DNA of 64,000 nucleotides from Parcubacteria group bacterium (GCA_041662245.1 JBAZSW010000002.1:89017-153016); one strand, 5' to 3'. Shown: positions 2,360-40,913, numbered from the stretch's first letter. The notes: generated by a model not told the origin, from the sequence alone. Numbers and translations are program-made.

Positions 2360-3526
2360 ATGAAAGAATTATTGTATCGTTATAATCCATGGTGGGAGGG
2401 GGAGATTGACTTAAAAAATTCCATTTCACGCCCGATTTTTTTTCAAGAAATGCTTGATAATCTGAGAAAACGGCAGATAGTTATCTTGACCGGCCTTCGA
2501 AGAGTTGGTAAAACGACCTTGATGAAACAACTGATACGACACTTGCTTGATGAAAAAAATATCAAAGCCGAGCATATTTTTTATATCAGTCTAGATGATT
2601 ATTTATTAAAGGATAAAAGCATTCTCGAAATAGTTGAGGAATATCGAAAAATTCATCGACTTGCTCATGACAAAAAAGTATTTTTATTTCTGGACGAAAT
2701 AACTTATCAAAAAGACTTTGAAATTCAATTAAAAAATATCTATGATCAGGAAAATGCCAAGGTTTATGTTTCTTCATCCAGTGCTTCTGTTTTAAAAAGC
2801 AAGAAGTCTTTTTTGACCGGTCGAAACTCTCTAATTGAGATTATGCCTCTGAATTTTAAGGAGTATTTGCAATTCAAAAAAATAAAAATTAAAAAAGCTG
2901 ATAAGCATTTGCTGGAAGGCATTTTTGAAGAGTTTATGCAAACTGGCGGAATGCCGGAATATGTCTTGACTGGAGATGTGCAATATTTAAAAGAGTTGGT
3001 CGATGATATCATTCAAAAAGACATTGCGGCACATTATGGCATTAGAGATGTGCAAATTTTAAAAGATTATTTCCTTTTGTTGATGGAAAGATCGGGCAAA
3101 GTTTTGAGTATTAATAAAATTGCCAAAATATTGGATATTTCTCCGGATTCATCAAGACGATATTTAGATATGTTTGTCGATTCATATTTGATATTTTTGG
3201 TATCAAGACATGGCAAAGTAAATGAGCGTTTGCTATCTGCTAAAAAAATATATGCCGCCGATTTGGGAATAAAAACATATTTTTCTGGATTTAGGGATAA
3301 GGGCAGTTTGTTTGAAAATTATGTCTACTTACAAATTAAAAAAAATAATCCTGCTTATATTTATCAAGATGGCAATGAAATTGATTTTATGACTGACAAA
3401 AAAATCCTAATTGAAGTAAAATATAATGCCCAGATGAATGAAAAACAAAATAAACTTTTTGAGAAAATTGTTGCCAAGAAAAAGATTTTGATTAAAAATA
3501 TTTTCGATTTGGATAAATTAAAATAA
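2360..3526 (+). CDS. AAA+ ATPase with C-terminal DUF4143 / PD-(D/E)xK nuclease-like domain (COG1373-type)
   Basis: Walker A motif ILTGLRRVGKTTL; Walker B motif FLFLDEI; C-terminal motif NEIDFMTDKKILIEVKYN (D...E.K). Confidence 0.75.
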   Translation: MKELLYRYNPWWEGEIDLKNSISRPIFFQEMLDNLRKRQIVILTGLRRVGKTTLMKQLIRHLLDEKNIKAEHIFYISLDDYLLKDKSILEIVEEYRKIHRLAHDKKVFLFLDEITYQKDFEIQLKNIYDQENAKVYVSSSSASVLKSKKSFLTGRNSLIEIMPLNFKEYLQFKKIKIKKADKHLLEGIFEEFMQTGGMPEYVLTGDVQYLKELVDDIIQKDIAAHYGIRDVQILKDYFLLLMERSGKVLSINKIAKILDISPDSSRRYLDMFVDSYLIFLVSRHGKVNERLLSAKKIYAADLGIKTYFSGFRDKGSLFENYVYLQIKKNNPAYIYQDGNEIDFMTDKKILIEVKYNAQMNEKQNKLFEKIVAKKKILIKNIFDLDKLK

Positions 3527-3600
3527 ATTCCGACTTAGGGATCGGACCCTCCACAAGTTCATAATCTTTTTATGGTATAATGGAGAGAAGAGAGGAGGAT

Positions 3601-3905
3601 TTAAGATAAATTTTTAATTTTTATATTTTTAATTTTTAAATAAATTTTAAAACAAAATTTTTAAACCAATTAAAGTATGATCTTGATTGGAATTAAAACA
3701 TTAAGATTTGAATCAAAATTTTAAATTTTAAATTTAAAGTTTAAAATGAATATAAAAATATTAAATGATTAAAACAGATACGAAATATAATAAGAAAAAG
3801 ATTAAAATTAAAATTTATTCATTTAAAATTGATTTCAAATTTCAAATTTAGCCTTTAAAATTAGAGCTATATTTACAAAATTACAAAAATTACAAAATTA
3901 AAAAT
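3601..3905. repeat. Repeat family A, copy 2
   Basis: About 97% identical to 1956-2257. Confidence 0.85.
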
Positions 3906-4036
3906 TCTATAAACTGTGATTTAGAAGAGAGATACACAAAATTCGTAGAGACGAAACACTGCTTCGTCTGCATGCTACAAACTAATATTGACAATCTTTT
4001 GGCTCTGAAGATCTCTAAGTTAAATAAATTAAATCT

Positions 4037-4879
4037 ATGACCAATAAAAAAGAAACGATTTTATTCAAGAATGATCCGATTCGTAGGATTTGGGATGAAG
4101 ATAAAGAAAAATGGTATTTTAGCGTGGTGGATGTGATGCGGGTTTTGACAAGTCCGACTGATTTTCAAACAGCTAGAAAATATTGGAATAAACTAAAAGG
4201 ACGTTTGAAAAAAGAAGGAAGCGAGTCGGTGACAAATTGTCACCAACTGAAATTTATAGCTAAGGATGGTAAGTATTATGCTAGTGATGCCGCCGATACG
4301 GAAACATTATTCCGCATCATCCAATCTGTACCATCGCCAAAAGCTGAGCCATTTAAACTTTGGTTGGCCAAAGTCGGTTATGAACGCCTAAAGGAATCGG
4401 TTGATCCGGAGATTGCCCTCAATCGAGCCCGTGAAAATTGGGTTAAAATGGGCAGGTCAAAAAAGTGGATCGAGCAACGCATGCGTGGTCAAGAGATTCG
4501 AAACAAACTGACTGATTATTGGGGTGATCATAAGGTTAGTGAAGAAGAGGAATACGCCAGATTGACGGATATTATTCATAGGGAATGGAGTGGACTAACG
4601 ACTAAAGCTCATAAAAATTTAAAAAGTCTCAAAGGACATAATCTGCGCGATAACATGACCGAGGCGGAATTGGTTTTTACATCGTTGGCAGAATTAACGA
4701 CGAGAAACATTGCGGAAAAAGATAGAGCGGTTGGTTTTGATAAAAATGCTATTTCGGCGAAAAAAGGCGGGGCAGTGGCGGGTCGGGCGAAAGAAGATTT
4801 TGAGTTGCAAACAGGAAAGAAGGTTGTAAGCGGCGAGAATTTTTTAGCACCAACTAAAAAAAAGAAGAAAATAGTATAG
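4037..4879 (+). CDS. Bro-N domain protein (DinD / phage antirepressor-like)
   Basis: N-terminal motif IRRIWDEDKEKWYFSVVDVMRVLT...ARKYWNKLKGRL...SPKAEPFKLWLAKVGYERL is reminiscent of Bro-N / DinD family members. The family name is recalled from memory. Confidence 0.45.
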   Translation: MTNKKETILFKNDPIRRIWDEDKEKWYFSVVDVMRVLTSPTDFQTARKYWNKLKGRLKKEGSESVTNCHQLKFIAKDGKYYASDAADTETLFRIIQSVPSPKAEPFKLWLAKVGYERLKESVDPEIALNRARENWVKMGRSKKWIEQRMRGQEIRNKLTDYWGDHKVSEEEEYARLTDIIHREWSGLTTKAHKNLKSLKGHNLRDNMTEAELVFTSLAELTTRNIAEKDRAVGFDKNAISAKKGGAVAGRAKEDFELQTGKKVVSGENFLAPTKKKKKIV

Positions 4880-5007
4880 AAGAAAGAATGAATTGAAATG
4901 AATTTCGAATTTTGAATCAATTTCTAATTATCTAATGTTTCAAAATTAAAAAATTTAGATTTATTTACAAAATTACAAAAATTAAAAATTACAAAATTAA
5001 AGTTATA

Positions 5008-8000
5008 ATGTCCAAATTTCAAAAACTAATCTTAATATTTTTTTTCATATTAATCGGACTTTCTTCCGCAACTTTCGCGTCGGCCGCGGGGAATGTTTAT
5101 TATTCCGTCGGCCAATCCACCGCTAACCTCATGACGGGCGCGCCCAATGTGGCCATCACGAGTGGCGTGGCTACTTTTGACGTGGCGCAGACTGCCAACA
5201 TTGGCGTGGGGGATGTGATAGTGGCTAATGCCATTTCCTATTATATCGCCTCCAAAACTTCCACCACCGTTTGGAATGTAGTCACCAATACAGGAGCTAC
5301 GCCCACTGACATCACCTCCACTGCGGTCACTTCAGTGAAACACGTTTACACTTCTTTGAATTCGGCGGTGACAGGCGCGTCTACTCTTTTGGGCAGTTCT
5401 GACTTGACGACGGCCGACGTAGTTTTAAATATTCCTTGCTATTATGACTCCGCGGCTGACACGACCGCCGTGACTGTTAGTGGTTACACCACCGATGCGA
5501 CGCGGTATATCAAGATTTACACGCCAAGTAACACCACGACGGAAGCGAACAATTCGCAAAGGCATAGTGGGAAGTGGGATGCGACAAAATATCAATTGGC
5601 AGTATCTGGAAATTCCGCACTATATACGAGCGTCAGTTACACATATATTCAGGGATTGCAAGTGGCTCTTGATATAAGTGTATCTAGCACAAATATAGCG
5701 GGCATATTTTCTGTTAGTACATATGTGAAAATAACCGGAAATATTGTTAAGGCTAACAATACAGGCGTTCCTAGTTATTATAAACAGGGAATTAGAGTTA
5801 CTACCGTCGGAACGGGCGTTGGGGTTTGGAATAATATAATTTATGGATTTCAATATAGCGGGCTGACGTATTATGGTGGAATATCGGCGAACTCCGCTGG
5901 AGCTTATGTGTATAACAATACTGTATATAATAATGGGGGAGGTATCTACATTGCTGCAAATACTTTCGCCAAGAATAATATTTCCTACAATAACTCGTTG
6001 GATTATTATGTAGGTGCTGGTGCATTTGATGCTTCTTCTACTGGTAATCTTTCCAAAGATGCCTCCGCTCCGGCGCTCAACACATATTACAGAAATAAGA
6101 CATTGACTTTCGTCAGCACCATTTCCGGTGGTGAAGATTTTCATTTGGTTCCTGCTGATACGGATGCGATTAACAAAGGAGCGGATTTGAGTGGCGATGC
6201 CAATTTGCCATTCACCACCGACATCGATGGCGCGCCGAGGAATGCTTCGATTAATGCTTGGGACATCGGGGCGGACGAAGCGGCGACGCAGATTTTCCGC
6301 AGTGTCGCTCCGAGTGCCACGGCGGTTTTGGAAAGTGACACTTCGCACGCTCGCACTGTGACACTTACCAGCGGCGTGGCGACTTTTAGCAATGCTCTCT
6401 CTGACACCATCGGGGTGGGGGACGCGGTGCTGATCGACACGGGCGGCACGGATCAAGCGATTGATGCTTCAGACACATTATTATTCATCAGTGGTCGTAA
6501 TTCTTCTACCAGCTACAACCTACAAACTAATAATGGTTCTGTACCCAGTAACATTGCCAGCAACGATACTTATCAAATCTATCGCGCTTACACTTCCATC
6601 GCTAACGCCGAGGAGGGAACCAAAAACACCTCCATCCCTATCGCTTTCAATGGCGGCAATCGCAATATTTTCACCAACAATGAACAATGGAACATCGCGT
6701 GTTATGCCAATGGGACCACGGCGGATGCCAGGGCGGTAGTCAGCGGTTGGACAACGGGTACGAATAATTATATCAAAATCTATACTCCCGTGAATTTGAC
6801 CGAAGTGGGCACGAGCCAAAGGCATGCTGGCAAATGGGATGACAGTAAGTATAAGATGGAGATCAATGCTAATTTTTATATTTATGCAGCCAATACTAGA
6901 TTTGACGGAATCCAGATCAAGGGCAGTGGCAGTGAAGATGTCATCAGTTATGATAATTTCAATTCTTCCGGCGGAGAACAGGTCGTGTCCAATTCGATTA
7001 TCCGCGGAGGCACGCGCGGTATCGCTGGAGTGCGCGCTAATACAAAAATTAGGATTTACAACAATATCATCTATACGATGGCCAATGCTGGATTGTATCC
7101 TTGTCCTACCGATTCCTTTTGCTATATGTATAACAATACATTATACAATACAGGAACATATGGCATTTATACCAACGGTGGTACAGCCATTGCCAAGAAT
7201 AACATCGTCTATGGTGCTGGTAATTTTAACACCTATGCTGGGACTTTTTCGGTCGGGACGGATAACAACGCGACTGACAGCACGGATGCGATTGGACAAG
7301 GCTCCAATAACAGAATCAGCCAAACTTTCTCTTTCGTTTCCACCGTGAGTGGCTCGGAAGACTTCCATCTCCAGTCGACTGATGCCGGCGCGCGAAATTA
7401 TGGCGCGGATATGAGCGCGGATGTTAATTTTGCTTTTGCCACCGATATCGACGGCGCGTCGAGAAATGCGAGCATTAACGCGTGGGATATCGGGGCGGAT
7501 GAAACCGCTACCCAGATTTTCAGAAGTGTCGGACCCAGTGCTACGGCGGTGCTCGAAAGTGATACATCGCATGCTAGAACAGTGACTCTTACTAGTGGAG
7601 TGGCGACTTTTAGTAATGCTCTCTCTGACACCATCGGGGTGGGGGACGCTGTCATCATCGACACGGGTGGCACGGATCAAACCATTGATGCTAGTGATAC
7701 GATATTATTTATCAGCAGCAGAAATAGTGCTACCAGCTACCAGCTACAAGCTAACAACGGCTCCGTACCCAGTAACATTACTATCAATGACACTTACCAA
7801 ATTTACCGCGCCTACACCAGTTTGAGTTTGGCGGAAGCGGGGACGAAGAATGCGAGCATTCCGATGACTTTTAATGGTGGTGATCGCGATTTGGTGGCGA
7901 ATAATGAGCAGTGGAATCTAGCGTGTTATGCCAATGGAACGACGGCGGATACGACTGCAGTGACAGTGAGTGGCTGGATCACTGCACAACAGGATTTTAT

Positions 8001-12540: not shown

Positions 12541-12675
12541 AATGGACATTCGATGTCGAAAATCTTTTTATGGTATAATGGGGGAAGAGAGGAGGATTTG
12601 AAATAAATTTCGAATTTTGAATTTCGAATTTTGAATCAATTTCGAATGAATAAATGATAAGAAATGTTTCCTCTT

Positions 12676-12750
12676 GTCATTTCGACCGAATAAATATTTG
12701 TACTCAAATATTTAGAAGTGGAGACCTGCCTGCCGGCAGACAGGAATCTT
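12676..12750. repeat. Intergenic repeat family B (long form with GC palindrome CCTGCCTGCCGGCAGACAGG)
   Basis: The unit gtcatttcgaccgaataaatatttgtactcaaatatttagaagtggagacctgcctgccggcagacaggaatctt recurs at 16074-16148. Short forms lacking the GC hairpin are at 14343-14400 and 41224-41280. A partial copy is at 40931-40990. The unit contains a perfect AT hairpin AAATATTTG-TACT-CAAATATTT. Confidence 0.8.
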
Positions 12751-12822
12751 AGATGAATCAGAGATATAAGATGAATTTCGAATTTTGAATTTTGAATTTC
12801 GAATCAATTTCTAATTATCTAA

Positions 12823-13052
12823 TGTTTCAAAATTAAAACATTAAGATTTGAATCAAAATTTTAAATTTCAAATTTAAAGTTTAAAATGAATAAAAAAATA
12901 TTAAATGATTAAAACAGATACGAAATATAATAAGAAAAAGATTGAAATTAAAATTTATTCATTTAAAATTGATTTCAAATTTCAAATTTAGCCTTTAAAA
13001 TTAGAGCTATATTTACAAAAATTAAAAATTCTAAAAATTACAAAATTAAAGT
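12823..13052. repeat. Repeat family A, copy 3
   Basis: Sequence identity to the other A copies. Confidence 0.8.
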
Positions 13053-13097
13053 TATGAAGATGTTGCTATTGACTAATGTCATAATTTAGTATAAAAT

Positions 13098-13113
13098 TGA
13101 TATTATAATATCA
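13098..13113. promoter_or_regulatory. 16-bp perfect palindrome TGATATTATAATATCA (contains a TATAAT hexamer) 16 bp upstream of the ATPase start
   Basis: Perfect inverted repeat seen directly in the sequence. Confidence 0.5.
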
Positions 13114-13128
13114 TAATTAAATAAAAAT

Positions 13129-14262
13129 ATGTCATTTTATCCGAGAATAATTAAAGAAAGTATTGAAAAAAGCCTTTTTAAGGGTAAGGTTATTATTATT
13201 TATGGTGCTAGGCAAGTCGGAAAAACTACATTATCCAAGGAAATCCTGAAAAAATATGAAGGCAAAAGCACTTTTTTTAACTGTGAACTTTTGTCAGTCA
13301 AACAAAGTTTGGAAGTCCAAGAAGCCGCATCCTTAAAAGATTTTTTGGGAGATAATAGGCTGATCGTTTTGGATGAAGCGCAAAATGTTGCAAATGTAGG
13401 TCGGATTCTAAAAATAATGGTTGACACTTATCCCGAAATTCAAATAATCGCGACAGGATCTTCAAGCTTTGATCTGGCCAATAAAACCAGTGAACCTTTG
13501 ACCGGTAGAGCCATTCGTTTCACGCTCAGCCCATTGTCATTGGAAGAAATAAAAAACAAGACTAACGCAGTAGAATTGAATGCCCAGTTGGAAAACATTA
13601 TGCGATTTGGGACATATCCGGAGGTCTTTTTTTCGGCGGAAGAAAGTGCCAAGGATAAGCTGGATGAAATTGTTTCCAATTATCTGTATAAAGATGTCTT
13701 GATGCTGGATGGCATAAAAAAACCGGCAATTATCATAAAACTTCTCCAATTGTTGGCACTACAACTTGGCAATGAAGTTTCCTACAATGAATTGGCAACT
13801 TCGCTAGGGATAAATAGGCTCACCGTGGAAAAATATATCGATTTATTGGAAAAATGTTTTGTTATTTTTACCTTGAGAGCTTTGAGTCGCAATATGAGAA
13901 AAGAAATTTCGAAATCCGTGAAAATATATTTTTATGATTTGGGCATTAGGAACAGCTTGATACAGAATTATAATCTGTTGGAGATGCGCAATGATATCGG
14001 TGCTCTGTGGGAAAATTTGATGATTGTGGAAAAAATAAAGAAGAATAGTTATCATAAGATCTATGCTAATCTTTATTTCTGGCGCACTTATGACCAGAAA
14101 GAAATAGATTTAATAGAGGAACGGGACGGAAAATTTTTTGCCTATGAATTTAAGTGGAAAAAAGATAAGACTAAAGAGCCAAGGGACTTTTTGAGCAATT
14201 ATGCTAATTCTGAATTTGAAGTTGTTAACAGAGAAAATTATGGGAAGTTTTTGTTTGAGTGA
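13129..14262 (+). CDS. AAA+ ATPase with C-terminal PD-(D/E)xK-like domain (paralog 2)
   Basis: Walker A motif IIYGARQVGKTTL; Walker B motif VLDEAQ; C-terminal motif KEIDLIEERDGKFFAYEFKWKKD. Confidence 0.75.
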   Translation: MSFYPRIIKESIEKSLFKGKVIIIYGARQVGKTTLSKEILKKYEGKSTFFNCELLSVKQSLEVQEAASLKDFLGDNRLIVLDEAQNVANVGRILKIMVDTYPEIQIIATGSSSFDLANKTSEPLTGRAIRFTLSPLSLEEIKNKTNAVELNAQLENIMRFGTYPEVFFSAEESAKDKLDEIVSNYLYKDVLMLDGIKKPAIIIKLLQLLALQLGNEVSYNELATSLGINRLTVEKYIDLLEKCFVIFTLRALSRNMRKEISKSVKIYFYDLGIRNSLIQNYNLLEMRNDIGALWENLMIVEKIKKNSYHKIYANLYFWRTYDQKEIDLIEERDGKFFAYEFKWKKDKTKEPRDFLSNYANSEFEVVNRENYGKFLFE

Positions 14263-14621: not shown

Positions 14622-14714
14622 ATGTCCAAATTTCAAAAACTATTATTAATCCTAGTATTTACGATAATCGGACTTTCTTCCGCAACTTTCGCGTCGGCAG
14701 CATCTAATGTATAA
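14622..14714 (+). pseudogene. Orphan 30-codon stub of a giant-gene 5' end (promoter-proximal repeat plus signal peptide MSKFQKLLLILVFTIIGLSSATFASAASNV, then a stop)
   Basis: The upstream A repeat and the first 84 nt are near-identical to the starts of the genes at 16365 and 27097. The reading frame ends at TAA 14712-14714. Confidence 0.7.
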
Positions 14715-14761
14715 TATATATGATACCCAAAGCAAGTTTGATTTTACAACTAAGCTGATAA

Positions 14762-14797
14762 GTACAGATTGACTTTTTTTTATTAAATCTGTACTAT
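14762..14797 (+). promoter_or_regulatory. Promoter TTGACT (14769-14774), 17-bp spacer, TACTAT (14792-14797), embedded in the inverted repeat GTACAGAT...ATCTGTAC
   Basis: The inverted repeat 14762-14769 / 14787-14794 overlaps both promoter hexamers. The ATG of the next gene is at 14824. Confidence 0.5.
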
Positions 14798-14823
14798 AAA
14801 GACATAATCAATAAAAATACCGT

Positions 14824-15999
14824 ATGTATATAAAAAGACAAGCTGAAGATACAATTTTGAAACTATTGAAGAAATATCCCGCAGTCGCTCTTGTTGGTCC
14901 GCGACAATCTGGTAAATCAACTATTGCCAAAAATATATTGAAAAATTATCCTTATTACTCGCTAGAGGACTTGGATGAGCGTGAATTTGCTACTTCTGAT
15001 CCACGTGGCTTTCTGGAGCGTTTTAAAAATGGCGGAATAATAGATGAAATTCAAAAAGTGCCAGAATTAATCTCGTATCTGCAATCATTTTTGGATAATA
15101 AAAAAAATAAAAGTCCTATTATTTTGACTGGATCAGCCCAATTGACATTGTTGTCCAATATCAGTCAAACTTTGTCTGGCAGGGTGGCTATAATTGAATT
15201 GTTGCCTTTGGCTTATGTTGAAATAAAAAAAATGTCAGTGGCTCCGAAGTCATTAGAAAAATTATTTCATACAGGCTTATATCCAAAATTATATAAAGAA
15301 AAGATTAATCCTAATGATTGGTATTACGATTATGTTAAAACATACCTGGAAAGAGATGTCAGAGATATTTTGAAAGTGCATAATCTTGGAACATTTCAAA
15401 AATTTCTTAAAATGTGCGCTTCACGTGCCGGACAAATTTTGAATTTTTCATCACTGGCCAATGATTGTGGCATATCTCATTCTACTGCTGAGTCGTGGTT
15501 CAATATTCTTGAAGCGACATATATTGTAATTCGCATCCAACCGCATCATCAAAATTTTTCCAAGAGATTAATCAAATCGCCTAAACTGTATTTTTATGAT
15601 ACCGGTCTTTTGTGTTTTCTTTTGGGGATCAGTTCGGCTGATGACTTAAAAACTCATTCTTTTCGTGGAGCGATAATGGAGAATTGGGTGGCGAATGAAA
15701 TTGTAAAATCGAAATGTAACGCTCACAAACCAAATGGCATATATTTTTGGCGTGACAATAAGGGTATTGAGATTGATTTTGTAATGGAGCAAGGAACGAA
15801 ATTATATCCAATTGAAGTCAAATCAGGCAAAACTATAAATACGGATTATTTCAAAAATATTTTATACTGGTCGAAATTGGCTGGAAACAAGGCCAAGAAT
15901 GGAGCAGTGGTTTATGCGGGAAATGAAAATCAAACCAGAACAGATTTTGAGATTTATGGATGGAAATCTATAGATAACTTAATTGAGAGGATGATTTAG
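14824..15999 (+). CDS. AAA+ ATPase with C-terminal PD-(D/E)xK-like domain (paralog 3)
   Basis: Walker A motif ALVGPRQSGKSTI; Walker B motif IIDEIQ; C-terminal motif GIEIDFVMEQGTKLYPIEVKSGKT. Confidence 0.75.
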   Translation: MYIKRQAEDTILKLLKKYPAVALVGPRQSGKSTIAKNILKNYPYYSLEDLDEREFATSDPRGFLERFKNGGIIDEIQKVPELISYLQSFLDNKKNKSPIILTGSAQLTLLSNISQTLSGRVAIIELLPLAYVEIKKMSVAPKSLEKLFHTGLYPKLYKEKINPNDWYYDYVKTYLERDVRDILKVHNLGTFQKFLKMCASRAGQILNFSSLANDCGISHSTAESWFNILEATYIVIRIQPHHQNFSKRLIKSPKLYFYDTGLLCFLLGISSADDLKTHSFRGAIMENWVANEIVKSKCNAHKPNGIYFWRDNKGIEIDFVMEQGTKLYPIEVKSGKTINTDYFKNILYWSKLAGNKAKNGAVVYAGNENQTRTDFEIYGWKSIDNLIERMI

Positions 16000-16073
16000 G
16001 ATGAATTTCGAATTTTGAATTTCGAATTTTGAATCAATTTCAAATGAATAAATGATAAGAAATGTTTCCTCTT

Positions 16074-36000: not shown

Positions 36001-39000
36001 ACCAGTGTAAGTTTAGCGGAAGCGGGCACCAAAAATACGAGTATCCCGATAACTTTTAACGGAGGCAATCGTGATTTAGTTACCAACAATGAACAGTGGA
36101 ACTTGGCTTGTTATGCTAATGGAGTGACAGCGGATACGACATCAGTAATAATTACTGGTTGGACCACTGCGCAACAGGACTTTATTAAAATTTATACCCC
36201 TGTATCGACAACTGAAGTAGGGACGAGTCAAAGGCACGGGGGGAAGTGGGACAGCGGATTTTTTAGAATGGAGAACATTTCATACAGTCTGTATATATCA
36301 GTTGACAATATTGTCATTGATGGAATTCAATTCTACAATAGTAATAATGTTGGAAACTCGTCAGGCATTTATCTTACTGGTGCGGGAGGGATAGAAAACA
36401 TAACGTTTAGTGGAAATATTTTTAGGGGTTTGGGATCATATAGCGACGGCAATTTACATAGTGGTATTTCTGCTACGGGACTAACTCCGACAGCAGGTTC
36501 AGTAGTTAAAATTTATAATAACATTGTTTATGATTTTTCCGGTTCATCGCTAAGTGGAATAGGCATAAACGCTGTAAAAGGAACTCGAACATATTATATT
36601 TATAACAATACTGTGTATAATATTGTGGGTTATGGAATCAATAATTATAGTGCTGCGGCAGTGGTAGCTAAGAATAATATTGTGCAAAATTGTACCGATG
36701 GATATGTTGGAACTTTTACTAGCTCCGACTACAACATCTCCGACATCGCTGCCGACAACACTGGTGGGGCGCATGACAAACAAGCCACCGTGGCTTTCGC
36801 CGACACTGCCAACAAAGATTTTCACCTCGCTCCCACCGACACCGCCGCCAAAAATTCCGGCGTGGATTTGAGCGCGGATGCTAATTTGCCAATCACCACC
36901 GACATCGACGGCCAGACTAGAATCGCCACTCCCGGTTTTGACATCGGCGCGGATGAAGCGGCTAATGCCGTCTATTATTCCGTCGGCCAATCCACCGCGG
37001 ACTTGAAGACCGGCACACCGAATGTTTCCATTGCCAGCGGTACGGCCACTTTTGATGTGGGGCAAACTGCTAATATCGGGGTTGGGGATGTGATGATCGC
37101 TAACGCCATTTCATATTACATATCAAGCAAAACTTCCACCACCGTTTGGAATGTGGTTACGGTGACAGGCACCACTCCCACCAACATCACTTCCACGGCT
37201 GTCACTTCGATCAAGCACGTCTATTCTTCTTTGAATTCCGCCTCCTCCGGTGCGGGCACACTTCTTGGTACGAGTGATTTGTATACTAACAATTACCAAA
37301 TCAATATCCCATGTTATTATGACAGTGCCGCCGACACGACGGCGGTGACTGTGCAAAATTACACTACCGCTGTGCCCAATTATATTAAAATTTATACGCC
37401 GAATAATACGGTGACGGAGAGTAATAATTCGCAGAGGCATAGCGGGAAATGGGACACGGGGAAGTATAGCCTCTCTAACAGTGCAGTAGCAGATGCTTTA
37501 AGAATTAATAATAACAATGTTGTTATTGCTGGTTTACAGATTAATCAGCAGTATAATGCTGATTATTATGATGCAATCGCAGTGGGAGCTGATAATCGCA
37601 ATGCGATGATCTTGCAAAATATTCTAAAAGATTCTGGTGCGACCAATTCGGGGAACGCCGTTTATGTAGGCAATAGTACCAATACGTCAATTCCGAGTAT
37701 GATTTATATTGTGAATAATGTCGCTTATGGCTGGAAATCAGATGCTATAAATGTTGGTGGCGTTGGAGATAATGGGGCATTTGTGTACAATAATACATTA
37801 TATGGAAACGGCACCTGTGGCATAAATCAAAATAGTTATTATGATGTTGTCGCTAAAAATAATGTTGTAAATTCTAGTGGTACTTATGGTTATTGTACTT
37901 CTCATCTTTCAACGCCTTTAAATTACGCTACCTCTTCCACTAACAATATTTCCTCTGATGCCACCGCTCTGGGATCAAATTCCAAAATCAATGCTACCGT
38001 TAAATTTATTTCTACCACCAGTGGTAGTGAAGATTTACATTTATCTCCCGAAGATAAAATGGCTAGAGATTTCGGAGCAGATTTGAGTGTGGATGCCAAT
38101 TTTGCCTTTAGCACTGACGTTGACGGTTCTGTTCGGACAGTTTCTTGGGATGCAGGAGCCGATGAAACGGCGACACAAATCTTCTACAGTGTCGGACAGA
38201 ACACCACTGATCACAGCATCGGCAGTGGTGGTGCCACTTGTTCTACTACGGGGGCTTGCACCATCACTATTGCCGGTGGCATGGCTACTTTCAATTATGC
38301 CCAAACCGCCACCAATCTCGGAGTGGGTGATAAGGTGACTTACAATACCACGAGTGTGGCTTATATTACCCAAAAAATTTCTCAAACCCAATGGAAATTA
38401 ATGACAGCCACAGGTGGAGTGCCAGCCGACGTCGGCACGGCCCAGACTTTGAATTCCATTACGCATGCCTTTGCCTCATTGGAAGGTGCGGTGGATGCTG
38501 ATAATGCCAATGGTGCCTTTGATTCAACCCATCTCAACACCAAAGATTTGGTGATTGGAAATTACCAACTCAATGTTCCTTGTTATTATGACACAGGCGC
38601 GGATACGATGAATGTAATATTGAGATCTTGGAAGACAAGCACGCAGAATTATATCAAGATGTACACGCCCAATAATACTACTAGCGAAGTCAATCAGTCT
38701 CAGAGACACAACGGTAAATGGGACGCGACGAAATATTCCTTATCCAGTACGGGCCTTGGCTCAAATCTTTATACCGCGGATAATAGTACGGGCAATGGCA
38801 ATGTCATAATTGAGGGCATTCAATTCTACAGATATAGCGCTAGCAATTTTACATCTGTATTATCTCTGCCCTCGACTAAGAATTCATTCAAAAGAATATC
38901 TTCTAATATATTCAAAGGGGAAGTAAATTATTTATCCAGCACTTATGTCATTTCCGGAGGGGTAGCCGGAGCAGATGTTTATATCTATAATAATATTTTT

Positions 39001-39498
39001 CAAGATTTTAAGCCCGCCAGCGGATATGTCTGGGGATTTAATCCGAGTGCTGGCAATTGGTATGTTTACAACAATACTTTTTATAATTGTGACGTGGCGA
39101 TTAGACGCGGGGCATCGAATAATATGTATGTCAAAAACAACATCACCCAAAATTGTACTGACGGATATTATGGAACTTTTGACGCATCTTCCGATTATAA
39201 TATCTCTGACCTCGCTGCTGACACTGCGGGTGGCGTGCACGACAAACAAGCCACTGTGGCTTTTATTGACGCTACCAATAAAGATTTCTGTTTGAAGACA
39301 AGCGATACGGCGGCCAGATATGCAGGAATAAATCTTTCTACTGATAGTTATTTACCTTTTACAAATGACATTCGAGGCAAAGCTCGTCCCAAATCTCCCG
39401 ATGCTTGGAGTATCGGCGCTTGCGAAAATCTCGATTCTACAAAAGTAAAAATGGAAGGCACGCAGATAAAATTGGAAGGAGATGTGAAATTTGAGTAA
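27097..39498 (+). CDS. Giant secreted modular protein (4133 aa): signal peptide, 10 modules, no LamG tail
   Basis: Same signal peptide. Ten modules each end in the DFHL...TDIDG..R...WDIGADE motif. The last ends ...DAWSIGACENLDSTKVKMEGTQIKLEGDVKFE. Confidence 0.85.
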   Translation: MSKFQKLLLILVFTIIGLSSASLASAATQIYRSVASGVTATLATDSSHANTVTVTSGTATFSAALPDNIGVGDAVLIDTGGTDQTIDASDTLLFIHARASSTSYTLKTHTGATPSDISINDTYSIYRAYTSLSNAEAGTKNTNIPITFNGGDRNLVTNDEVWNFACYAAGTTADTAMTTIDSWTTDSTRYMRIYTPVSTTEVGTSQRHSGKWDESKYYISIGNNSAGIYYNIKYLVIDGIQIKVTSSDSSGSVGIQAYNSSIVAGGEITIKNNIVRGQLSGTDPGSAGIATSGYSPNSGVIKIFNNIVYDFARVTGTPQAIFFGAGDHYIYNNTIINCYGGLYKNGGSSAAVAKNNIVKGATDAYYGTFTTGTDYNATDGTDDIGTGSNNKISQTFSFIDETNDDFHLSSTDTAARNSGIDLATDTYSPFATDIDGAGRSATVNAWDIGADETATQIFRSVGPSATAVLESDTSHARTVTLTSGVATFSVALADDIGVGDAVLIDTGGTSNAIDASDTILFISARNSSTSYNLQTHTGAAPSDITINDTYSIYRAYTSLSLAEAGTKNTSIPITFNGGNRDLVTNNEEWNLACYANGVTADTTSVTVAGWTTAQQDFIKIYTPVTTTEVGTSQRHGGKWDMGKYNLTVDSGSWRAITNEVSYMTINGLQISKDCQNNNDSNAVRDQGVGGLVNISNNIIKETSTNSLTASQGVRKHWGSGTVLIWNNIIYGWHGTGNYVSGIVNASASAAYLYGYNNTIYDCNIGIRRDTGTIIAKNNITQNCTDGYSGTFDSSSDYNISDLASDNTGGAHDKQATVAFADTANKDFHLAPTDTQAKNSGADLSADANLPFTTDIDGQTRSATPGWDIGADEAANAVYYSVGQSTADLKTGSPNVAITAGVATFDVAQTGNIGVGDVVVANAISYYISSKTSTTVWNVVTVTGATPTNITSTAVTSIKHVYTSLNSAVSGASTLLGTTDLYTNNYQINIPCYYDSAADTTAVTVSGYTTAVPNYIKIYTPYNTTTESNNSQRHSGKWDATKYRLVTTLGNISVSYVNNVKIDGLQLESQATVARRVIIMIGSNMAISNNILRYSGAAPVEAIFCNSTQTNIDVWNNIVYGFANGGDGIYITNNNNGSARVYNNIVYGGTYGITTGNTDIIAKNNISYNNTTYDFSSGTFHSTSTNNLSKDATAPPLNTYYTSKTLAFTSTTAGAEDFHLVAADTDAINKGADLSADTNLAFSTDIDSQTRNLRSEGWDIGADEAATQIFYSVGQNTSDHKTGSPLVTVSGTTATFDTAQTATNMGVGDLVTYTGGTCYISAKTSTTVWSCLSVTGGAPTAATNASVTSIAHAFASLEGAVDADMATGAFDATHLNTKDLVAGNYQLNVPCYYDSGADTTAVVVRSWTTGAQDYIRIYTPVSTTTEVNQTQRHSGKWDSGKYNMLISSGASGKAIYVANQYIRIDGLQIKTVGYGGIWSNVIYGAKGQIISNNIIWGSGTFTAAGQGIGWFGNVASVSAYNNIIYGFTYAGSYGIRLDQYTQDKTPVVYNNTVYGCDTGILQDADAYYSNNIAYNNGVDFSGTSRAGSTNNLSKDGTATGTNAKINQTVAFTSTASGSEDFHLASTDTAAKNSGADLSADANLPFATDIDGASRNASINAWDIGADETATQIFYSVGQNTSDHKTGSPTVTVSGTTATFDTAQTATNMGVGDLVTYTGGTCYISAKTSTSVWSCVSATGGTPTVASGANVTSIAHAFSALSTALDADSISTSAGNSSHLNTNNLVTGNYQLNVPCYYDSGPDVGAYVRSWTTGAQNHIKIYTPVSTTSEANQTQRHSGKWDNTKYSINATGLGQNINSWNIDLVIEGLQIYKYAADGYTSIITVNPAAFSRISANIFKGDNNFGSAYGISGGSASLNVNIYDNVFQDFRSPSSYFWTINPAAGNWYVYNNTFYNCHIALRGISGMVAKNNIVQNCVDGYDGTFNSASDYNISDLASDNTGGAHDKQATVAFADTANKDFHLAPTDTAAKNSGADLSADAYLPFATDIDGQTRSATPSWDIGADEAANAVYYSVGQSTADLKTGTPNVAITSGVATFDVAQTGNIGVGDVMIANAISYYISSKTSTTVWNVVTNTGATPTDITSTAVTSIKHVYTSLNSASSGAGTLLGTTDLYTNNYQINIPCYYDGAADTTSVTVSGYTTAVPNYIKIYTPYNTTTESNNSQRHSGKWDDAKYRLVSASPTTVQLNSSYIMLEGIQLKNTNTTSGADTAIIYTSLNNANSLLTINKNIVVAQVSGVGTMYAFKDIYQTTKNAIFSNNSFYNITGGTAEDRAIIMDGGNFYIYNNTIYNAEAGLKITYSSTVIAKNNIVQGATDGYYGTFDSSSDYNISNLSSDTTGGAHDKQATVVFISTTAGVEDFHLALTDTAARNSGVDLSADTSFAFTTDIDSQTRNQNALGWDIGADEAATQIFYSVGQNTTDHKTGTPLVTVAGTMATFDTAQTATNMGVGDLVTYTGGTCYISAKTSSTIWSCISATGGTPTAVINASVTSIAHAFASLEGAVDAGTASGAFDASHLNTKDIMAGNFQLNIPCYYDSGADTTAVTVQSWTTGAQNYLKIYTPNNTTSEVNQTQRHAGKWDDTKYDLKISTNAHNMQISISYIHIDGLQIYQYADNSAKVSLYVYSPNTGIEISNNIIRGRGSYTTGTHLGINIATSNKIWNNIIYNFNVTGSVGINSTGSYTNQYIYNNTIYNCAVGIARSNATVILKNNIAYNNGTDYSGTFDASSTNNLSKDATAPPLNTYYINKTLAFTNVTSGAEDFHLATTDTDAINKGADLSADTSLSFTTDIDGAGRIAAVNAWDIGADETATQIYRSVAPSATAVLESDTSHARTVTITSGVATFSNALSDTIGVGDAVLIDTGGTDQTIDASDTILFISSRNSATSYNLQTHTGATPSDITINDTYSIYRAYTSVSLAEAGTKNTSIPITFNGGNRDLVTNNEQWNLACYANGVTADTTSVIITGWTTAQQDFIKIYTPVSTTEVGTSQRHGGKWDSGFFRMENISYSLYISVDNIVIDGIQFYNSNNVGNSSGIYLTGAGGIENITFSGNIFRGLGSYSDGNLHSGISATGLTPTAGSVVKIYNNIVYDFSGSSLSGIGINAVKGTRTYYIYNNTVYNIVGYGINNYSAAAVVAKNNIVQNCTDGYVGTFTSSDYNISDIAADNTGGAHDKQATVAFADTANKDFHLAPTDTAAKNSGVDLSADANLPITTDIDGQTRIATPGFDIGADEAANAVYYSVGQSTADLKTGTPNVSIASGTATFDVGQTANIGVGDVMIANAISYYISSKTSTTVWNVVTVTGTTPTNITSTAVTSIKHVYSSLNSASSGAGTLLGTSDLYTNNYQINIPCYYDSAADTTAVTVQNYTTAVPNYIKIYTPNNTVTESNNSQRHSGKWDTGKYSLSNSAVADALRINNNNVVIAGLQINQQYNADYYDAIAVGADNRNAMILQNILKDSGATNSGNAVYVGNSTNTSIPSMIYIVNNVAYGWKSDAINVGGVGDNGAFVYNNTLYGNGTCGINQNSYYDVVAKNNVVNSSGTYGYCTSHLSTPLNYATSSTNNISSDATALGSNSKINATVKFISTTSGSEDLHLSPEDKMARDFGADLSVDANFAFSTDVDGSVRTVSWDAGADETATQIFYSVGQNTTDHSIGSGGATCSTTGACTITIAGGMATFNYAQTATNLGVGDKVTYNTTSVAYITQKISQTQWKLMTATGGVPADVGTAQTLNSITHAFASLEGAVDADNANGAFDSTHLNTKDLVIGNYQLNVPCYYDTGADTMNVILRSWKTSTQNYIKMYTPNNTTSEVNQSQRHNGKWDATKYSLSSTGLGSNLYTADNSTGNGNVIIEGIQFYRYSASNFTSVLSLPSTKNSFKRISSNIFKGEVNYLSSTYVISGGVAGADVYIYNNIFQDFKPASGYVWGFNPSAGNWYVYNNTFYNCDVAIRRGASNNMYVKNNITQNCTDGYYGTFDASSDYNISDLAADTAGGVHDKQATVAFIDATNKDFCLKTSDTAARYAGINLSTDSYLPFTNDIRGKARPKSPDAWSIGACENLDSTKVKMEGTQIKLEGDVKFE

Positions 39499-39572
39499 TG
39501 GCCTTTGATGGGGAAAGTGTGTTGGGATGTAATTATAGTAAATAACGCTATTTTAGGGGATTTGGGGAACTA

Positions 39573-39601
39573 TTGACATTTTTTATTAAAAACAGTACAA
39601 T
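39573..39601 (+). promoter_or_regulatory. Promoter TTGACA (39573-39578), 17-bp spacer, TACAAT (39596-39601)
   Basis: Canonical hexamers and spacing. The track ORF begins at the TTG of the -35 hexamer, so the true start is more likely the ATG at 39636. Confidence 0.55.
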
Positions 39602-39635
39602 AAGGGCAGAAATTAATATTAAATTCATACATTAT

Positions 39636-40913
39636 ATGAGTGAAATTTATAAAAGAAGGTTAGTAGACAATATTAAAAAATGGTTAAATAGGCCAGAAAT
39701 CATCGTTATTACGGGTTCTCGTCAGATAGGCAAAACATTTTTAACCAGAAAAATATTGCCGACTATAACAAAAAAGCCGATAAAATATTTTAATTTTGAG
39801 GATTTGGAGCTTCGTTCGTTGTTTCAAGAAAACCCAAAAGGTTTTATGGAAAGCATTAAAGACGAGGAAAATATTTATGTTTTTGATGAATTTCAGAAAG
39901 TTCCTAATCTGACTAGCTTTTTAAAAGTACTTTATGATCAAGACAAAGAAAAAATTCCAAAAATATTTTTAACTGGTTCTTCATCGCTTGAAATTCAAGA
40001 AAAAATTTCGCAAAGCCTAGTGGGTCAATGTGTTGTTTTTGATTTTTTTTCACTGTCTTTTTCTGAGAGATATTTTTTAGAGAAAAATAATCTTTTGGGA
40101 GAAATTTTATCACTTGAGAGCAGTTTAGATATAAAAAAACTACAACAGGGAGTTTTTTTTGAAAAAGATGATTTGGCGAGAAAATTTGATGAATATATGT
40201 TACGAGGTGGATACCCAGAACTGGGAGAGCTGGAGGGCGAGCAAATTTGGCAAAAATTAAAATCAATTATTGAGTTGATTCTAGAAAAAGATATGCGAGG
40301 ACTGGTGAAAGATGAACATCTTTTTTCTTCCAAAAAACTTTTAGAAATTTTGGCTTTTCGCATTGGCAATATTATTTCCTTTGAAAATCTGGCTGCGGAA
40401 ATGCAACTTAATATCAAAACAGTGCGCAACTTGATAGCCGTTTTTAAAGGATTATTTTTTATCGAATTTATCTATCCCAAAGCAAGTTTTGCGCATGAAT
40501 ATAAAAAAGCGCCAAAGGTGTATTTCAATGATTTGGGTATGCGAAATGAATTGATAAAAATGCATAAACTTCCAGTTGATCGATCGCAACTCGGAGCGAT
40601 GGTGGAGAACTTTGTTTTTTGCCAGCTTAAACGATATAGTGCTTATAAAAAAGATTTTAAGATAAACTATTGGCAAGATTATAATAAAAATGAAGTGGAC
40701 TTTGTTTTGGATGTTGAAGGTCGGATTATTTCAATAGAAGTTAAATATCGCAAAGGTCAGAAAGATAGATTAACTGTCGGTGTTGCGAACTTTATTAAAA
40801 AATATAATTCACAAACCCATATTACAATTACCTATGATTATTTTGGAACTTCTAAAATTGGCAATTGTACAGTTTACTTCATTCCTGCTTATATGTTTGG
40901 ATTGATAATATAA
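39636..40913 (+). CDS. AAA+ ATPase with C-terminal PD-(D/E)xK-like domain (paralog 4)
   Basis: Walker A motif VITGSRQIGKTFL; Walker B motif VFDEFQ; C-terminal motif NEVDFVLDVEGRIISIEVKYRKG. Confidence 0.7.
   Translation: MSEIYKRRLVDNIKKWLNRPEIIVITGSRQIGKTFLTRKILPTITKKPIKYFNFEDLELRSLFQENPKGFMESIKDEENIYVFDEFQKVPNLTSFLKVLYDQDKEKIPKIFLTGSSSLEIQEKISQSLVGQCVVFDFFSLSFSERYFLEKNNLLGEILSLESSLDIKKLQQGVFFEKDDLARKFDEYMLRGGYPELGELEGEQIWQKLKSIIELILEKDMRGLVKDEHLFSSKKLLEILAFRIGNIISFENLAAEMQLNIKTVRNLIAVFKGLFFIEFIYPKASFAHEYKKAPKVYFNDLGMRNELIKMHKLPVDRSQLGAMVENFVFCQLKRYSAYKKDFKINYWQDYNKNEVDFVLDVEGRIISIEVKYRKGQKDRLTVGVANFIKKYNSQTHITITYDYFGTSKIGNCTVYFIPAYMFGLII

What the first reader, a model, noticed from the sequence alone, without database searches (positions are those of the whole stretch)
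2360..40913. Four paralogous AAA+ ATPase/PD-(D/E)xK-nuclease fusion genes interleaved with the giant genes, each behind its own palindrome-embedded promoter
The genes at 2360, 13129, 14824 and 39636 all have Walker A/B motifs and a C-terminal D...(I/F)E(V/F)K motif typical of restriction-endonuclease-fold nucleases (COG1373 / DUF4143 type). Each has a private promoter overlapped by perfect inverted repeats. These are two 19-bp TATACGATA(T/C)TATCGTATA palindromes at 2280-2331, TGATATTATAATATCA at 13098-13113, GTACAGAT...ATCTGTAC at 14762-14794, and a clean TTGACA-17-TACAAT promoter at 39573-39601. Operator-wrapped promoters suggest tight, possibly autoregulatory, control. Their strict alternation with the repeat units and giant genes suggests a functional link, such as nucleic-acid surveillance or defence, or involvement in cassette recombination, rather than chance.
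Basis: partly seen in the sequence, partly recalled or inferred. Interest (0 to 1): 0.6.

Follow-up and report, generated by a model that had tools for sequence, protein, structure and literature searches.

The report
Self-promoted ATPase-nuclease defence-candidate genes
Four distantly related copies of a very common but uncharacterised bacterial "ATPase fused to a DNA-cutting domain" gene sit among giant surface-protein genes of a tiny-genome (Parcubacteria) bacterium; the genes are ordinary members of a known candidate anti-virus family, but at least two carry promoter-plus-operator blocks that travel with the gene between unrelated bacteria, which suggests self-regulation.

Summary

They are only 23-29% identical, so they are four subfamilies, not recent paralogs. 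Alternation with the giant genes is not strict.

The A1 double palindrome is a genuine conserved element. TATACGAT-N3-ATCGTATA sites flank the -35 and cover the spacer/-10. The block recurs in front of A1-type genes (56-73% identical) in many phyla and unrelated neighbourhoods. The ATPase is the only shared gene.

The A3 inverted repeat (GTACAR-N21-CTGTAC) persists in 56-84% homologs. The A2 palindrome is kept only in an 88% ortholog and may be chance. A4 has a conserved promoter and 5'UTR.

Best reading: these are self-contained, horizontally mobile, probably autorepressed single-gene cassettes that lodged in a recombination-prone surface-protein island. Giant-gene neighbours appear only in the two closest-ortholog contexts, so that link looks lineage-specific. 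The gene family is known; the conserved operator is a modest, testable novelty.

The parts
2360..3526 (+). A1: ATPase-wHTH-PD-(D/E)xK nuclease gene, 388 aa (PDC-S01 sub-model PDLC04787)
2280..2298 (.). A1 operator O1 (TATACGAT-ATT-ATCGTATA), just upstream of the -35
   Evidence: Perfect 9-bp arms. The left half, which was not part of the search pattern, matches perfectly in 13 of 24 loci.
2304..2333 (+). A1 promoter TTGACA-18-TATAAT (12 of 12 consensus bases)
   Evidence: Best promoter-like site in 1-20000. The same -35 and -10 occur in homolog loci.
2313..2331 (.). A1 operator O2 (TATACGAT-ACT-ATCGTATA), covering the spacer and the first bases of the -10
   Evidence: The right half, not part of the search pattern, has at most 1 mismatch in 21 of 24 loci. 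Background probability is 0.0005. It is also present in the protein-selected homologs L002, L005, L064 and L066.
13129..14262 (+). A2: ATPase-wHTH-nuclease gene, 377 aa (PDLC04789)
   Evidence: Pfam DUF4143 1.9e-40, AAA_14 1.3e-28, HTH_11 3.9e-5. PADLOC 1.5e-150.
13069..13113 (+). A2 promoter TTGACT-17-TAAAAT followed by the palindrome TGATATTATAATATCA (13098-13113)
   Evidence: The promoter is conserved in 88%, 69% and 65% homologs. The palindrome is kept only in the 88% ortholog. The shuffle test is not significant, 169 of 2000.
14824..15999 (+). A3: ATPase-wHTH-nuclease gene, 391 aa (PDLC04790)
   Evidence: Pfam DUF4143 7.5e-54 and AAA_14 7.8e-27. PADLOC 1.9e-101.
14761..14797 (+). A3 promoter TTGACT(14769-14774)-17-TACTAT(14792-14797), bracketed by inverted-repeat arms AGTACAGATT and AATCTGTACT
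   Evidence: 10-bp arms, reached in 25 of 2000 shuffles. The core GTACAR-N21-CTGTAC is kept in homologs of 84% (L043), 73% (L047) and 56% (L051) identity in unrelated contexts. It occurs once in the window.
39636..40913 (+). A4: ATPase-wHTH-nuclease gene, 425 aa. The true start is the ATG at 39636, not the TTG at 39573.
   Evidence: Pfam and PADLOC hits. The ATG and 5'UTR are conserved in homologs, and the TTG at 39573 is the first three bases of the -35 hexamer.
39573..39626 (+). A4 promoter TTGACA-17-TACAAT plus a conserved 5'UTR containing the near-palindrome GAAATTAATATTAAATTC (39609-39626)
   Evidence: Sequence is conserved from the -35 to the ATG in 63-80% homologs from four or more contexts. 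There is no similarity upstream of the -35.
2040..2253 (+). AT-rich 214-nt intergenic module, copy 1 of 6. The others are at 3691-3904, 12831-13044, 14396-14609, 16148-16361 and 40985-41198.
   Evidence: Direct-repeat family D16, 78-95% identical. The alignment shows the module ends at the giant-gene ATG, and ATPase cassettes begin where that ATG would be.
14622..14714 (+). Truncated 5' end (signal-peptide codons) of a giant gene, left between a module copy and the A3 cassette
   Evidence: By eye it is near-identical to the first ~90 nt of G2 (16365-) and G3 (27097-), then ends in a stop codon.
4037..4879 (+). Bro-N domain gene (PADLOC candidate PDC-S13), a neighbour of A1
   Evidence: Pfam Bro-N 2.6e-9. 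PADLOC PDC-S13 6.1e-117. A 62% homolog lies beside an A1 homolog in L066/L067.

Best explanation
The four genes are independent members of four divergent subfamilies of the widespread single-gene family AAA_14-DUF4143 (COG1373; PADLOC candidate PDC-S01). Each protein has three parts: a STAND/ORC-Cdc6-like P-loop ATPase, a winged-helix domain, and a small C-terminal PD-(D/E)xK nuclease.

Each gene is a self-contained cassette that runs from its own sigma-70-type promoter to its stop codon. That cassette, promoter included, is what moves between genomes.

For A1, and probably A3, the promoter is wrapped by symmetric operator sites that co-travel with the gene. The most likely mechanism, which is inferred and not shown, has two steps:
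1. The protein's own winged-helix domain binds these sites as a dimer or oligomer. This represses its own strong promoter and keeps a potentially toxic nuclease at a low level.
2. A nucleotide-dependent switch triggered by invading nucleic acid or protein activates the nuclease and may relieve repression.

The cassettes lie among the giant surface-protein genes because that region is a variable, recombination-prone island. Near-identical AT-rich leader modules there supply recombination substrates. The placement does not mean the ATPases act on the giant genes.
For: SHOWN
- Domain architecture and intact motifs in all four genes.
- A scan of one genome per species with a 22-base core of the A1 promoter/operator found 29 loci. 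They come from Actinomycetota, Clostridia, Nitrospirae, Bdellovibrionales, Peregrinibacteria, Saccharibacteria, Paceibacterota, Moraniibacteriota and other groups. In 23 loci an A1-type gene starts 17-57 nt downstream, and 2 more lie at contig ends.
- Half-sites outside the search pattern are conserved while the central 3 nt vary.
- Four protein-selected homolog contexts also carry the block.
- The ATPase is the only gene shared by these neighbourhoods: 26 of 31 loci, against 5 for the next cluster.
- Half-sites occur only at the promoter and never 3' of the gene. In the 64-kb window they occur only at A1.
- The A3 inverted repeat and all four promoters are conserved with their genes in unrelated contexts.
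- Residues of the predicted winged-helix recognition region (S250, N252, K253, S261, D263, R267, Y268) are listed as at least 90% conserved in an alignment of 43 A1-type sequences plus A2-A4. They differ in A2-A4, which have different promoter repeats.
- Homolog contexts are often defence or toxin-antitoxin neighbourhoods: AlwI restriction-modification and AbiEii, HepT/MNT, PIN/FitA, DruA, Fic.

LITERATURE
- DUF4143 is listed in the PD-(D/E)XK superfamily (PMC3424549).
[quoted passage not shown] PDCs are enriched in small-genome symbionts such as Patescibacteria (PMC12988326).
- A Thermus AAA_14/DUF4143 gene rose 6.6-fold in expression when plasmid DNA was present (PMC4406477).
Against: - No binding data exist, so autoregulation is an inference by exclusion. 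A host factor cannot be formally excluded, although it would need to be shared across about ten phyla.
- The A2 palindrome is not conserved beyond an 88% ortholog, and A4 has no clear operator. 'Operator-wrapped' therefore does not hold for all four genes.
- Defence activity of PDC-S01 is unproven. The one tested representative is not among the four candidates reported to protect E. coli against T4, T5 or T7 (bioRxiv 10.1101/2024.09.26.614923).
- The A2 and A3 orthologs in two related lineages again sit beside giant-gene homologs and extra ATPase genes. A lineage-specific functional link is therefore not excluded.
Confidence: 0.6

Rival explanations
1. There is a functional link with the giant genes. 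The ATPase-nucleases would cut or remodel DNA at the repeated leader modules, driving cassette shuffling or gene conversion among the giant surface-protein paralogs. Alternatively, they would protect this locus specifically.
For: - ATPase cassettes sit exactly where a giant-gene start codon would follow the 214-nt module. One cassette (A3) follows a truncated giant-gene 5' end.
- In two related lineages the A2 ortholog (L038/L039) and the A3 ortholog (L043-L046) again neighbour homologs of G1-G3 (40-46% identity). They also neighbour a 66% homolog of the 187-aa ORF and further ATPase genes of other subfamilies.
Against: - Members of the same subfamilies at 56-80% identity lie in about 11 other independent contexts with no giant gene. 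No G1-G3 homolog was found in any of them, and the largest ORF is usually under 1100 aa.
- Published surveys counted roughly 39,000 PDC-S01 systems across bacteria and archaea (PMC12988326). Distant family members occur on 276 plasmid records.
- The operator sequences of A1 and A3 do not occur in or near the modules or giant genes.
- The two positive contexts are the closest orthologs, so shared ancestry explains them.
Confidence: 0.1
2. These are selfish, addiction-type or homing-type elements rather than host defence. The nuclease-ATPase cassette would spread and persist for its own benefit. Tight autoregulation would serve safe establishment in a new host, as C-protein control does in restriction-modification systems.
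For: - Promoter-to-stop cassettes at 56-73% identity are spread across many phyla in unrelated neighbourhoods.
- There is no partner gene.
- Several divergent copies accumulate at one locus: the window, L038, L043 and L057.
- The family is common on plasmids.
- One heterologous defence test was negative (bioRxiv 10.1101/2024.09.26.614923).
Against: - No terminal repeats, no target duplication and no second copy of the operator 3' of the gene.
- No methylase or antitoxin partner that would make an addiction module.
- The gene was nominated for defence because it is embedded in BREX, DISARM and type I R-M loci (bioRxiv 10.1101/2024.01.29.577857).
- Selfish and defensive roles are not mutually exclusive.
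Confidence: 0.2
3. The palindromes are chance products of AT-rich intergenic DNA and the promoters are generic. Nothing regulatory is encoded.
For: - The upstream regions are 73-87% A+T.
- The A2 palindrome is reached in 169 of 2000 shuffles and is absent from 65-69% homologs.
- A4 has no significant inverted repeat.
- Promoter-like hits overall are only slightly above shuffle expectation: 83 found against 70 +/- 8 expected.
Against: - A1 has two copies of one 19-bp palindrome. Its half-sites are conserved across phyla at a background probability of 0.0005 per 8-mer.
- The A3 repeat is kept at the same 21-nt spacing in homologs down to 56% identity.
Confidence: 0.1

Closest known systems
PADLOC phage-defence candidate PDC-S01 (Pfam AAA_14 + DUF4143; COG1373 'predicted AAA+ ATPase')
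   Same: All four proteins hit PDC-S01 HMMs end to end (E 2.5e-71 to 1.5e-150). They have both Pfam domains above threshold, single-gene organisation, and frequent defence or toxin-antitoxin neighbours in homolog loci.
   Different: Nothing structural differs. These are ordinary members from four different sub-models. The conserved promoter/operator block of the A1 subfamily is not described in the papers I could search.
STAND NTPases used in immunity (NB-ARC/Apaf-1/CED-4; bacterial Avs)
   Different: There is no C-terminal repeat sensor (TPR, WD40 or LRR). The protein is only about 390 aa. The nuclease is C-terminal, not N-terminal. Whether it oligomerises on a trigger is unknown.
Orc1/Cdc6 initiators
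   Different: Orc1/Cdc6 has no nuclease domain. The sites here overlap a promoter rather than an origin. There is no evidence of a replication role.
C-protein-controlled restriction-modification systems and autoregulated toxin-antitoxin operons
   Same: Two symmetric operator sites are positioned at and around the -35 and -10 of the unit's own promoter. This suits tight control of a toxic nuclease after horizontal transfer.
   Different: Here the presumed regulator, ATPase and nuclease are one polypeptide. There is no separate controller, methylase or antitoxin gene.
VRR-NUC / Hjc-type minimal PD-(D/E)xK nucleases
   Different: Sequence identity is only 11-18%. The domain is fused to an ATPase-wHTH module, and its substrate is unknown.

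Membership tests
Pfam AAA_14 + DUF4143 architecture (COG1373) | AAA_14 domain hit above the gathering score | tested here: met
   94-109 bits against a cutoff of 27 for all four genes.
Pfam AAA_14 + DUF4143 architecture (COG1373) | C-terminal DUF4143 domain hit above the gathering score | tested here: met
   79-182 bits against a cutoff of 28.1 for all four genes.
Pfam AAA_14 + DUF4143 architecture (COG1373) | Intact Walker A and Walker B motifs | tested here: met
   G45, R47, G50, K51 and D112, E113 are invariant in the four-way and 46-way alignments.
PD-(D/E)xK nuclease superfamily | Conserved E ... D ... (D/E)xK catalytic residues | tested here: met
   E319, D342, E352 and K354 are invariant in 46 sequences, including all four window genes.
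PD-(D/E)xK nuclease superfamily | Alpha-beta-beta-beta-alpha-beta core fold | tested here: met
PD-(D/E)xK nuclease superfamily | Metal-dependent phosphodiesterase activity | not testable with these tools
   Needs biochemistry.
PADLOC PDC-S01 candidate defence system | Full-length match to a PDC-S01 HMM | tested here: met
   A1 matches PDLC04787 at 2.5e-71. A2 matches PDLC04789 at 1.5e-150. A3 matches PDLC04790 at 1.9e-101. A4 matches PDLC04789 at 1.5e-67.
PADLOC PDC-S01 candidate defence system | Protection against phage or other mobile DNA | not testable with these tools
   The literature has no positive test. One representative was tested against T4, T5 and T7 and is not among the four candidates reported as protective (bioRxiv 10.1101/2024.09.26.614923). 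Validation is stated as pending (PMC12988326).
STAND NTPases | Nucleotide-binding domain, helical domain and winged-helix domain in series | tested here: met
STAND NTPases | C-terminal repeat sensor domain (TPR, WD40 or LRR) | tested here: not met
   The proteins end in a roughly 90-aa nuclease domain and have no repeat-domain hits. They may work like STAND proteins but are not canonical members.
Autoregulated operator-promoter unit (as in C-protein or toxin-antitoxin control) | Symmetric operator(s) overlapping the unit's own promoter and conserved with the gene | tested here: met
   Met for A1. Met for A3 on three homologs. Not met for A2. No clear operator at A4.
Autoregulated operator-promoter unit (as in C-protein or toxin-antitoxin control) | The unit's own product binds the operator and represses transcription | not testable with these tools
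   Inferred only. The ATPase is the sole gene shared among operator-bearing loci, and it contains a winged helix.
Transposon / Tn7-like TnsA-TnsC element | Terminal repeats or a second copy of the binding site at the other end of the element | tested here: not met
   A1 half-sites occur only at the promoter in 16 loci, with none 3' of the gene.
Integron-type gene cassette array | An integrase next to the array, and attC-like recombination sites between cassettes | tested here: not met
   Every non-overlapped ORF of at least 100 aa in 1-42 kb was scanned against Pfam except G3, and none hit a recombinase family. G3 is a paralog of G1 and G2 (direct-repeat families). The inter-cassette repeat is the 5' leader of the giant genes, ending at their ATG. 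The attC-type structure itself was not folded.

The most novel reading that the evidence does not exclude
In this Parcubacteria/Moranbacteria lineage, diverse AAA_14-DUF4143 ATPase-nucleases have been recruited to the giant adhesin-like gene cluster. There they would promote or police recombination among the near-identical leader modules and giant-gene paralogs. That would be a nuclease-driven surface-protein variation system in an episymbiont. The association recurs in two related lineages with different ATPase subfamilies, which is the only evidence that keeps this reading alive.
Probability: 0.07. Interest if true: 0.75.

Novelty: new member of a known kind. Interest (0 to 1): 0.4.

Why it matters
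PDC-S01 (AAA_14-DUF4143) is reported as the fourth most common, though still candidate, defence system in prokaryotes. It is one of several candidates enriched in small-genome symbionts. It has no known trigger, target, or even a positive phenotype.

The finding gives a concrete handle for one subfamily. That subfamily carries an almost invariant pair of 19-bp operators around a consensus promoter in at least ten phyla, with no partner gene. The operators supply a defined DNA ligand for the protein's winged helix and a ready reporter assay. They may also explain negative heterologous tests, since the gene may be strongly self-repressed unless triggered.

For this window, the practical conclusion is that the ATPases are accessory cassettes in a variable surface-protein island. 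There is no evidence that they form a dedicated system with the giant genes.

Tried and rejected
1. Same-genome survey. The 30-nt core of the AT-rich module found nothing in metagenome contigs. The exact A1 promoter pattern did not recover the source contig in genome contigs. Exact-protein look-ups returned only 1.4-kb Logan contigs. Genome-wide copy number and context in the source organism therefore remain unknown.
2. Sequence search of A3 against PDB chains found nothing meaningful; the best E-value was 0.098, to antibody chains. Fold comparison was needed instead.
3. Rfam and tRNA scans of the window found only one tRNA-Thr at 61009-61082 and nothing in the intergenic modules.
4. Viral-contig scans. 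The A1 operator pattern gave 0 hits. An A3 pattern gave 4 hits, none followed by an A3-like gene, so they look like chance.
5. Transposon idea (TnsA/TnsC-like nuclease plus ATPase): rejected because no operator copy or repeat lies 3' of the gene.
6. Integron-like array: rejected. No recombinase was found, and the repeats are giant-gene leaders.
7. Co-travelling regulator gene: rejected by neighbourhood clustering.
8. Literature searches for COG1373 and AAA_14 returned nothing mechanistic.

Full report
WHAT IS IN THE WINDOW

The left 41 kb is an island of co-directional genes:
- An FG-GAP repeat gene (60-1901).
- Three giant paralogous genes: G1 5008-12540, G2 16365-25925 and G3 27097-39498. 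Their products are 2510, 3186 and 4133 aa.
- Four genes of about 390 aa, here called A1-A4.
- A Bro-N gene (4037-4879) and a 187-aa ORF (26168-26731).

G1 and G2 carry Laminin_G_3 domains, G2 a beta-helix hit, and all three a shared signal-peptide start. From 41.6 kb onward the genes are housekeeping: infA and rpmJ by eye, then ribosomal proteins S11 and S4, RpoA, aminoacyl-tRNA synthetases and Obg.

NCBI names the source of the identical proteins 'MAG: Parcubacteria group bacterium', on a contig of 196,952 bp. The nearest A1 relatives are from Candidatus Moranbacteria. Background G+C is about 31-33%. The ATPase genes are 30-35% G+C, and the 2-kb windows across the giant genes 37-48%.

CHECKING THE OBSERVATION

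All four genes score well above Pfam gathering thresholds for AAA_14 and DUF4143. NCBIfam has no model for them. All four match PADLOC's candidate PDC-S01 end to end, each best with a different sub-model.

Walker A, Walker B and the nuclease residues E319, D342, E352 and K354 are invariant. This holds among the four genes and in a 46-sequence alignment.

Pairwise identity is only 23-29%. They are distant family members, not recent duplicates.

The gene order is not a strict alternation. A2 and A3 are adjacent, and G2 and G3 are separated by the 187-aa ORF rather than by an ATPase.

FOLD

The alignments span 257-282 residues. They therefore cover the ATPase, the helical domain and the winged helix.

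THE A1 PROMOTER BLOCK IS A CONSERVED, CO-TRAVELLING ELEMENT

The first evidence came from homologs 72% identical to A1 in Moranbacteria contigs with completely different neighbours:
- One lies between an AlwI restriction-modification/DUF6119 cluster and ndk.
- Another lies between recO and an aminotransferase gene.
- Both carry the same layout: palindrome, 5 nt, TTGACA, 3 nt, palindrome overlapping TATAAT.

I then scanned one genome per species with the 22 specified bases ATCGTATA-N5-TTGACA-N3-TATACGAT:
- It returned 29 loci from Actinomycetota, Clostridia, Nitrospirae, Bdellovibrionales, Elusimicrobiota, Omnitrophota, Peregrinibacteria, Saccharibacteria, Paceibacterota, Moraniibacteriota and other groups.
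- In 23 loci an A1-type gene (56-73% identical) starts 17-57 nt downstream.
- Two more loci lie at contig ends.

The half-sites that were not part of the search pattern are also conserved:
- The right half of O2 has at most 1 mismatch in 21 of 24 loci. The background probability is 0.0005.
- The left half of O1 is perfect in 13 of 24.
- The central 3 nt vary freely, as expected for a dimer-bound operator.
- O2 is nearly always complete, whereas O1 is often reduced to one half-site.

Two further protein-selected homologs carry the block in slightly diverged form. Both are 61% identical to A1. L064 encodes LpxK and L066 a porin, so they probably come from Gram-negative organisms.

The ATPase is the only gene shared by these neighbourhoods: 26 of 31 loci, against 5 for the next cluster. 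Half-sites are never found 3' of the gene. In the window they occur only at A1.

I infer that the operators are bound by the protein's own winged helix. That is autoregulation, and it is not demonstrated. Consistent with it, winged-helix residues such as S261, D263, R267 and Y268 are listed as at least 90% conserved in the alignment of 43 A1-type sequences plus A2-A4. They differ in A2-A4.

THE OTHER THREE PROMOTERS

A3:
- The arms AGTACAGATT and AATCTGTACT bracket TTGACT-17-TACTAT. This arrangement is reached in 25 of 2000 shuffles.
- The core GTACAR-N21-CTGTAC, at identical spacing, recurs in three homologs.
- The 84% homolog is L043. The 73% homolog is L047, beside a HepT/MNT pair. The 56% homolog is L051, beside a sigma-54 two-component system.
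- That is good but thin support, resting on three independent homologs.

A2:
- The promoter is conserved in 88%, 69% and 65% homologs.
- The palindrome TGATATTATAATATCA survives only in the 88% ortholog.
- It is not significant by shuffling, at 169 of 2000. It may be chance.

A4:
- Homologs of 63-80% identity from four or more contexts share sequence from the -35 to the ATG, and nothing upstream of the -35.
- The conserved stretch includes a near-palindrome, GAAATTAATATTAAATTC, in the 5'UTR.
- The true start codon is the ATG at 39636. The TTG at 39573 is the first three bases of the -35 hexamer.

In all four cases the transferable unit runs from the promoter to the stop codon.

RELATION TO THE REPEATS AND THE GIANT GENES

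The 214-nt AT-rich module has six copies, 78-95% identical. It is the 5' leader of the giant genes:
- It ends at the ATG of G2.
- A shortened version of its 3' end precedes G1 and G3.

ATPase cassettes begin within a few bases of where that ATG would be. Before A3 there is a 93-nt remnant of a giant-gene 5' end (14622-14714). The region is a mosaic of modules, consistent with repeated homologous exchange.

Contexts elsewhere argue against a general functional link:
- A1 homologs, about 33 loci: no giant-gene homolog.
- A4 homologs, 3 or more contexts: no giant-gene homolog.
- A2 homologs at 65-69% identity: none.
- A3 homologs at 56-73% identity: none.
- The 88% A2 ortholog (L038/L039) and the 84% A3 ortholog (L043-L046): both neighbour homologs of G1-G3 (40-46% identity) and additional ATPase genes of yet other subfamilies. 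L043-L046 also carry a 66% homolog of the 187-aa ORF.

This pattern fits an ancestral, rearranging variable island in this lineage that accumulates such cassettes. It does not prove that reading. The alternative of a lineage-specific functional coupling keeps a small probability.

COMPARISON WITH WHAT IS KNOWN

PDC-S01 was nominated as a defence candidate because such genes are embedded in BREX, DISARM and type I R-M loci (bioRxiv 10.1101/2024.01.29.577857). It is described as an ATPase fused to a PD-(D/E)xK domain and as the fourth most common defence across prokaryotes. About 29,500 bacterial and 10,000 archaeal instances were counted, and validation is pending (PMC12988326). The one representative tested in E. 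coli against T4, T5 and T7 was not among the protective candidates (bioRxiv 10.1101/2024.09.26.614923).

Distant members occur on 276 plasmid records and a few phage records. A Thermus AAA_14/DUF4143 gene was 6.6-fold up-regulated in the presence of plasmid DNA (PMC4406477). That is compatible with regulated expression.

I found no description of the conserved operator pair in the searchable literature.

VERDICT

The genes are ordinary new members of a known, uncharacterised family, and the nuclease fold is confirmed. 'Paralogous' and 'strict alternation' are overstated. The operator idea is right for A1, plausible for A3 and unsupported for A2. The proposed link to the giant genes is most likely positional.

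The transferable result is the cross-phylum dual operator of the A1 subfamily. It makes autoregulation and DNA binding by these proteins directly testable.

Noticed in passing
window 4037-4879; L066 6240-7061, L067 1370-2008: The Bro-N gene next to A1 is PADLOC candidate PDC-S13 (6e-117). A 62% identical Bro-N gene lies immediately beside a 61% A1 homolog in an unrelated organism that is probably Gram-negative (its contig encodes a porin). This is a possible two-gene association, seen in only 2 of about 35 A1-type loci.
   Followed up: partly
window 12677-12745, 14343-14400, 16073-16145, 40925-40985, 41222-41275: A second repeated intergenic element, GTCATTTCGACCGAATAAATATTTGTACTCAAATATTTAGAAGTGGAGA. 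It contains an AT hairpin and is often followed by the GC-rich hairpin CCTGCCTGCCGGCAGACAGG. Similar GC hairpins occur in related contigs (L043 ~2262-2296; L062 upstream of the A4 homolog). There is no Rfam match. It may be a terminator or a REP-like element.
   Followed up: no
L043 16859-18295: The related island carrying the A3 ortholog has a diversity-generating retroelement signature (bAvd plus an RVT_1 reverse transcriptase) and a KilA-N gene about 6 kb downstream, just before tuf and rpsJ. No reverse transcriptase was noticed in the window's island.
   Followed up: no
window 5008-39498 versus the flanks: 2-kb windows across the giant genes are 37-48% G+C, in a genome whose other genes are about 31-34%. 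The ATPase cassettes match the low-GC background. The giant genes also contain long internal repeats with spacings of about 1.2, 2.4 and 3.6 kb that are shared among the three paralogs.
   Followed up: no
window 1-1516: Eight tandem 180-nt units (66-77% identical) encode FG-GAP repeats in the gene at 60-1901. An in-frame stop lies before position 60, so this may be a fragment or a separately started gene.
   Followed up: no
L038 8386-8452: Another AAA_14-DUF4143 subfamily, in tandem with the A2 ortholog, also has two similar small palindromes. TACTTG-A-CAAGTA overlaps its -35, and a TACTTA-G-TAAGTA-like site lies after the -10. Subfamily-specific promoter palindromes may be a general feature of the family.
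   Followed up: partly
window 26732-26830; L043 9830-9924: A roughly 95-nt element forms a long hairpin (…CAATACTCATTCAATATC…GATATTGAATGAATATTGAGTAT…). It is 81% conserved between the window, downstream of the 187-aa ORF, and L043, just upstream of the A3 ortholog.
   Followed up: no
L016, L023, L029: Three exact matches to the A1 operator/promoter pattern gave no blastp hit to A1 with my simple ORF rule. Downstream in L023 (Amylibacter) is a 115-aa ORF. L016 has a 289-aa ORF, and an ORF of that length clustered with the ATPases. These may be decayed or re-used promoters.
   Followed up: partly
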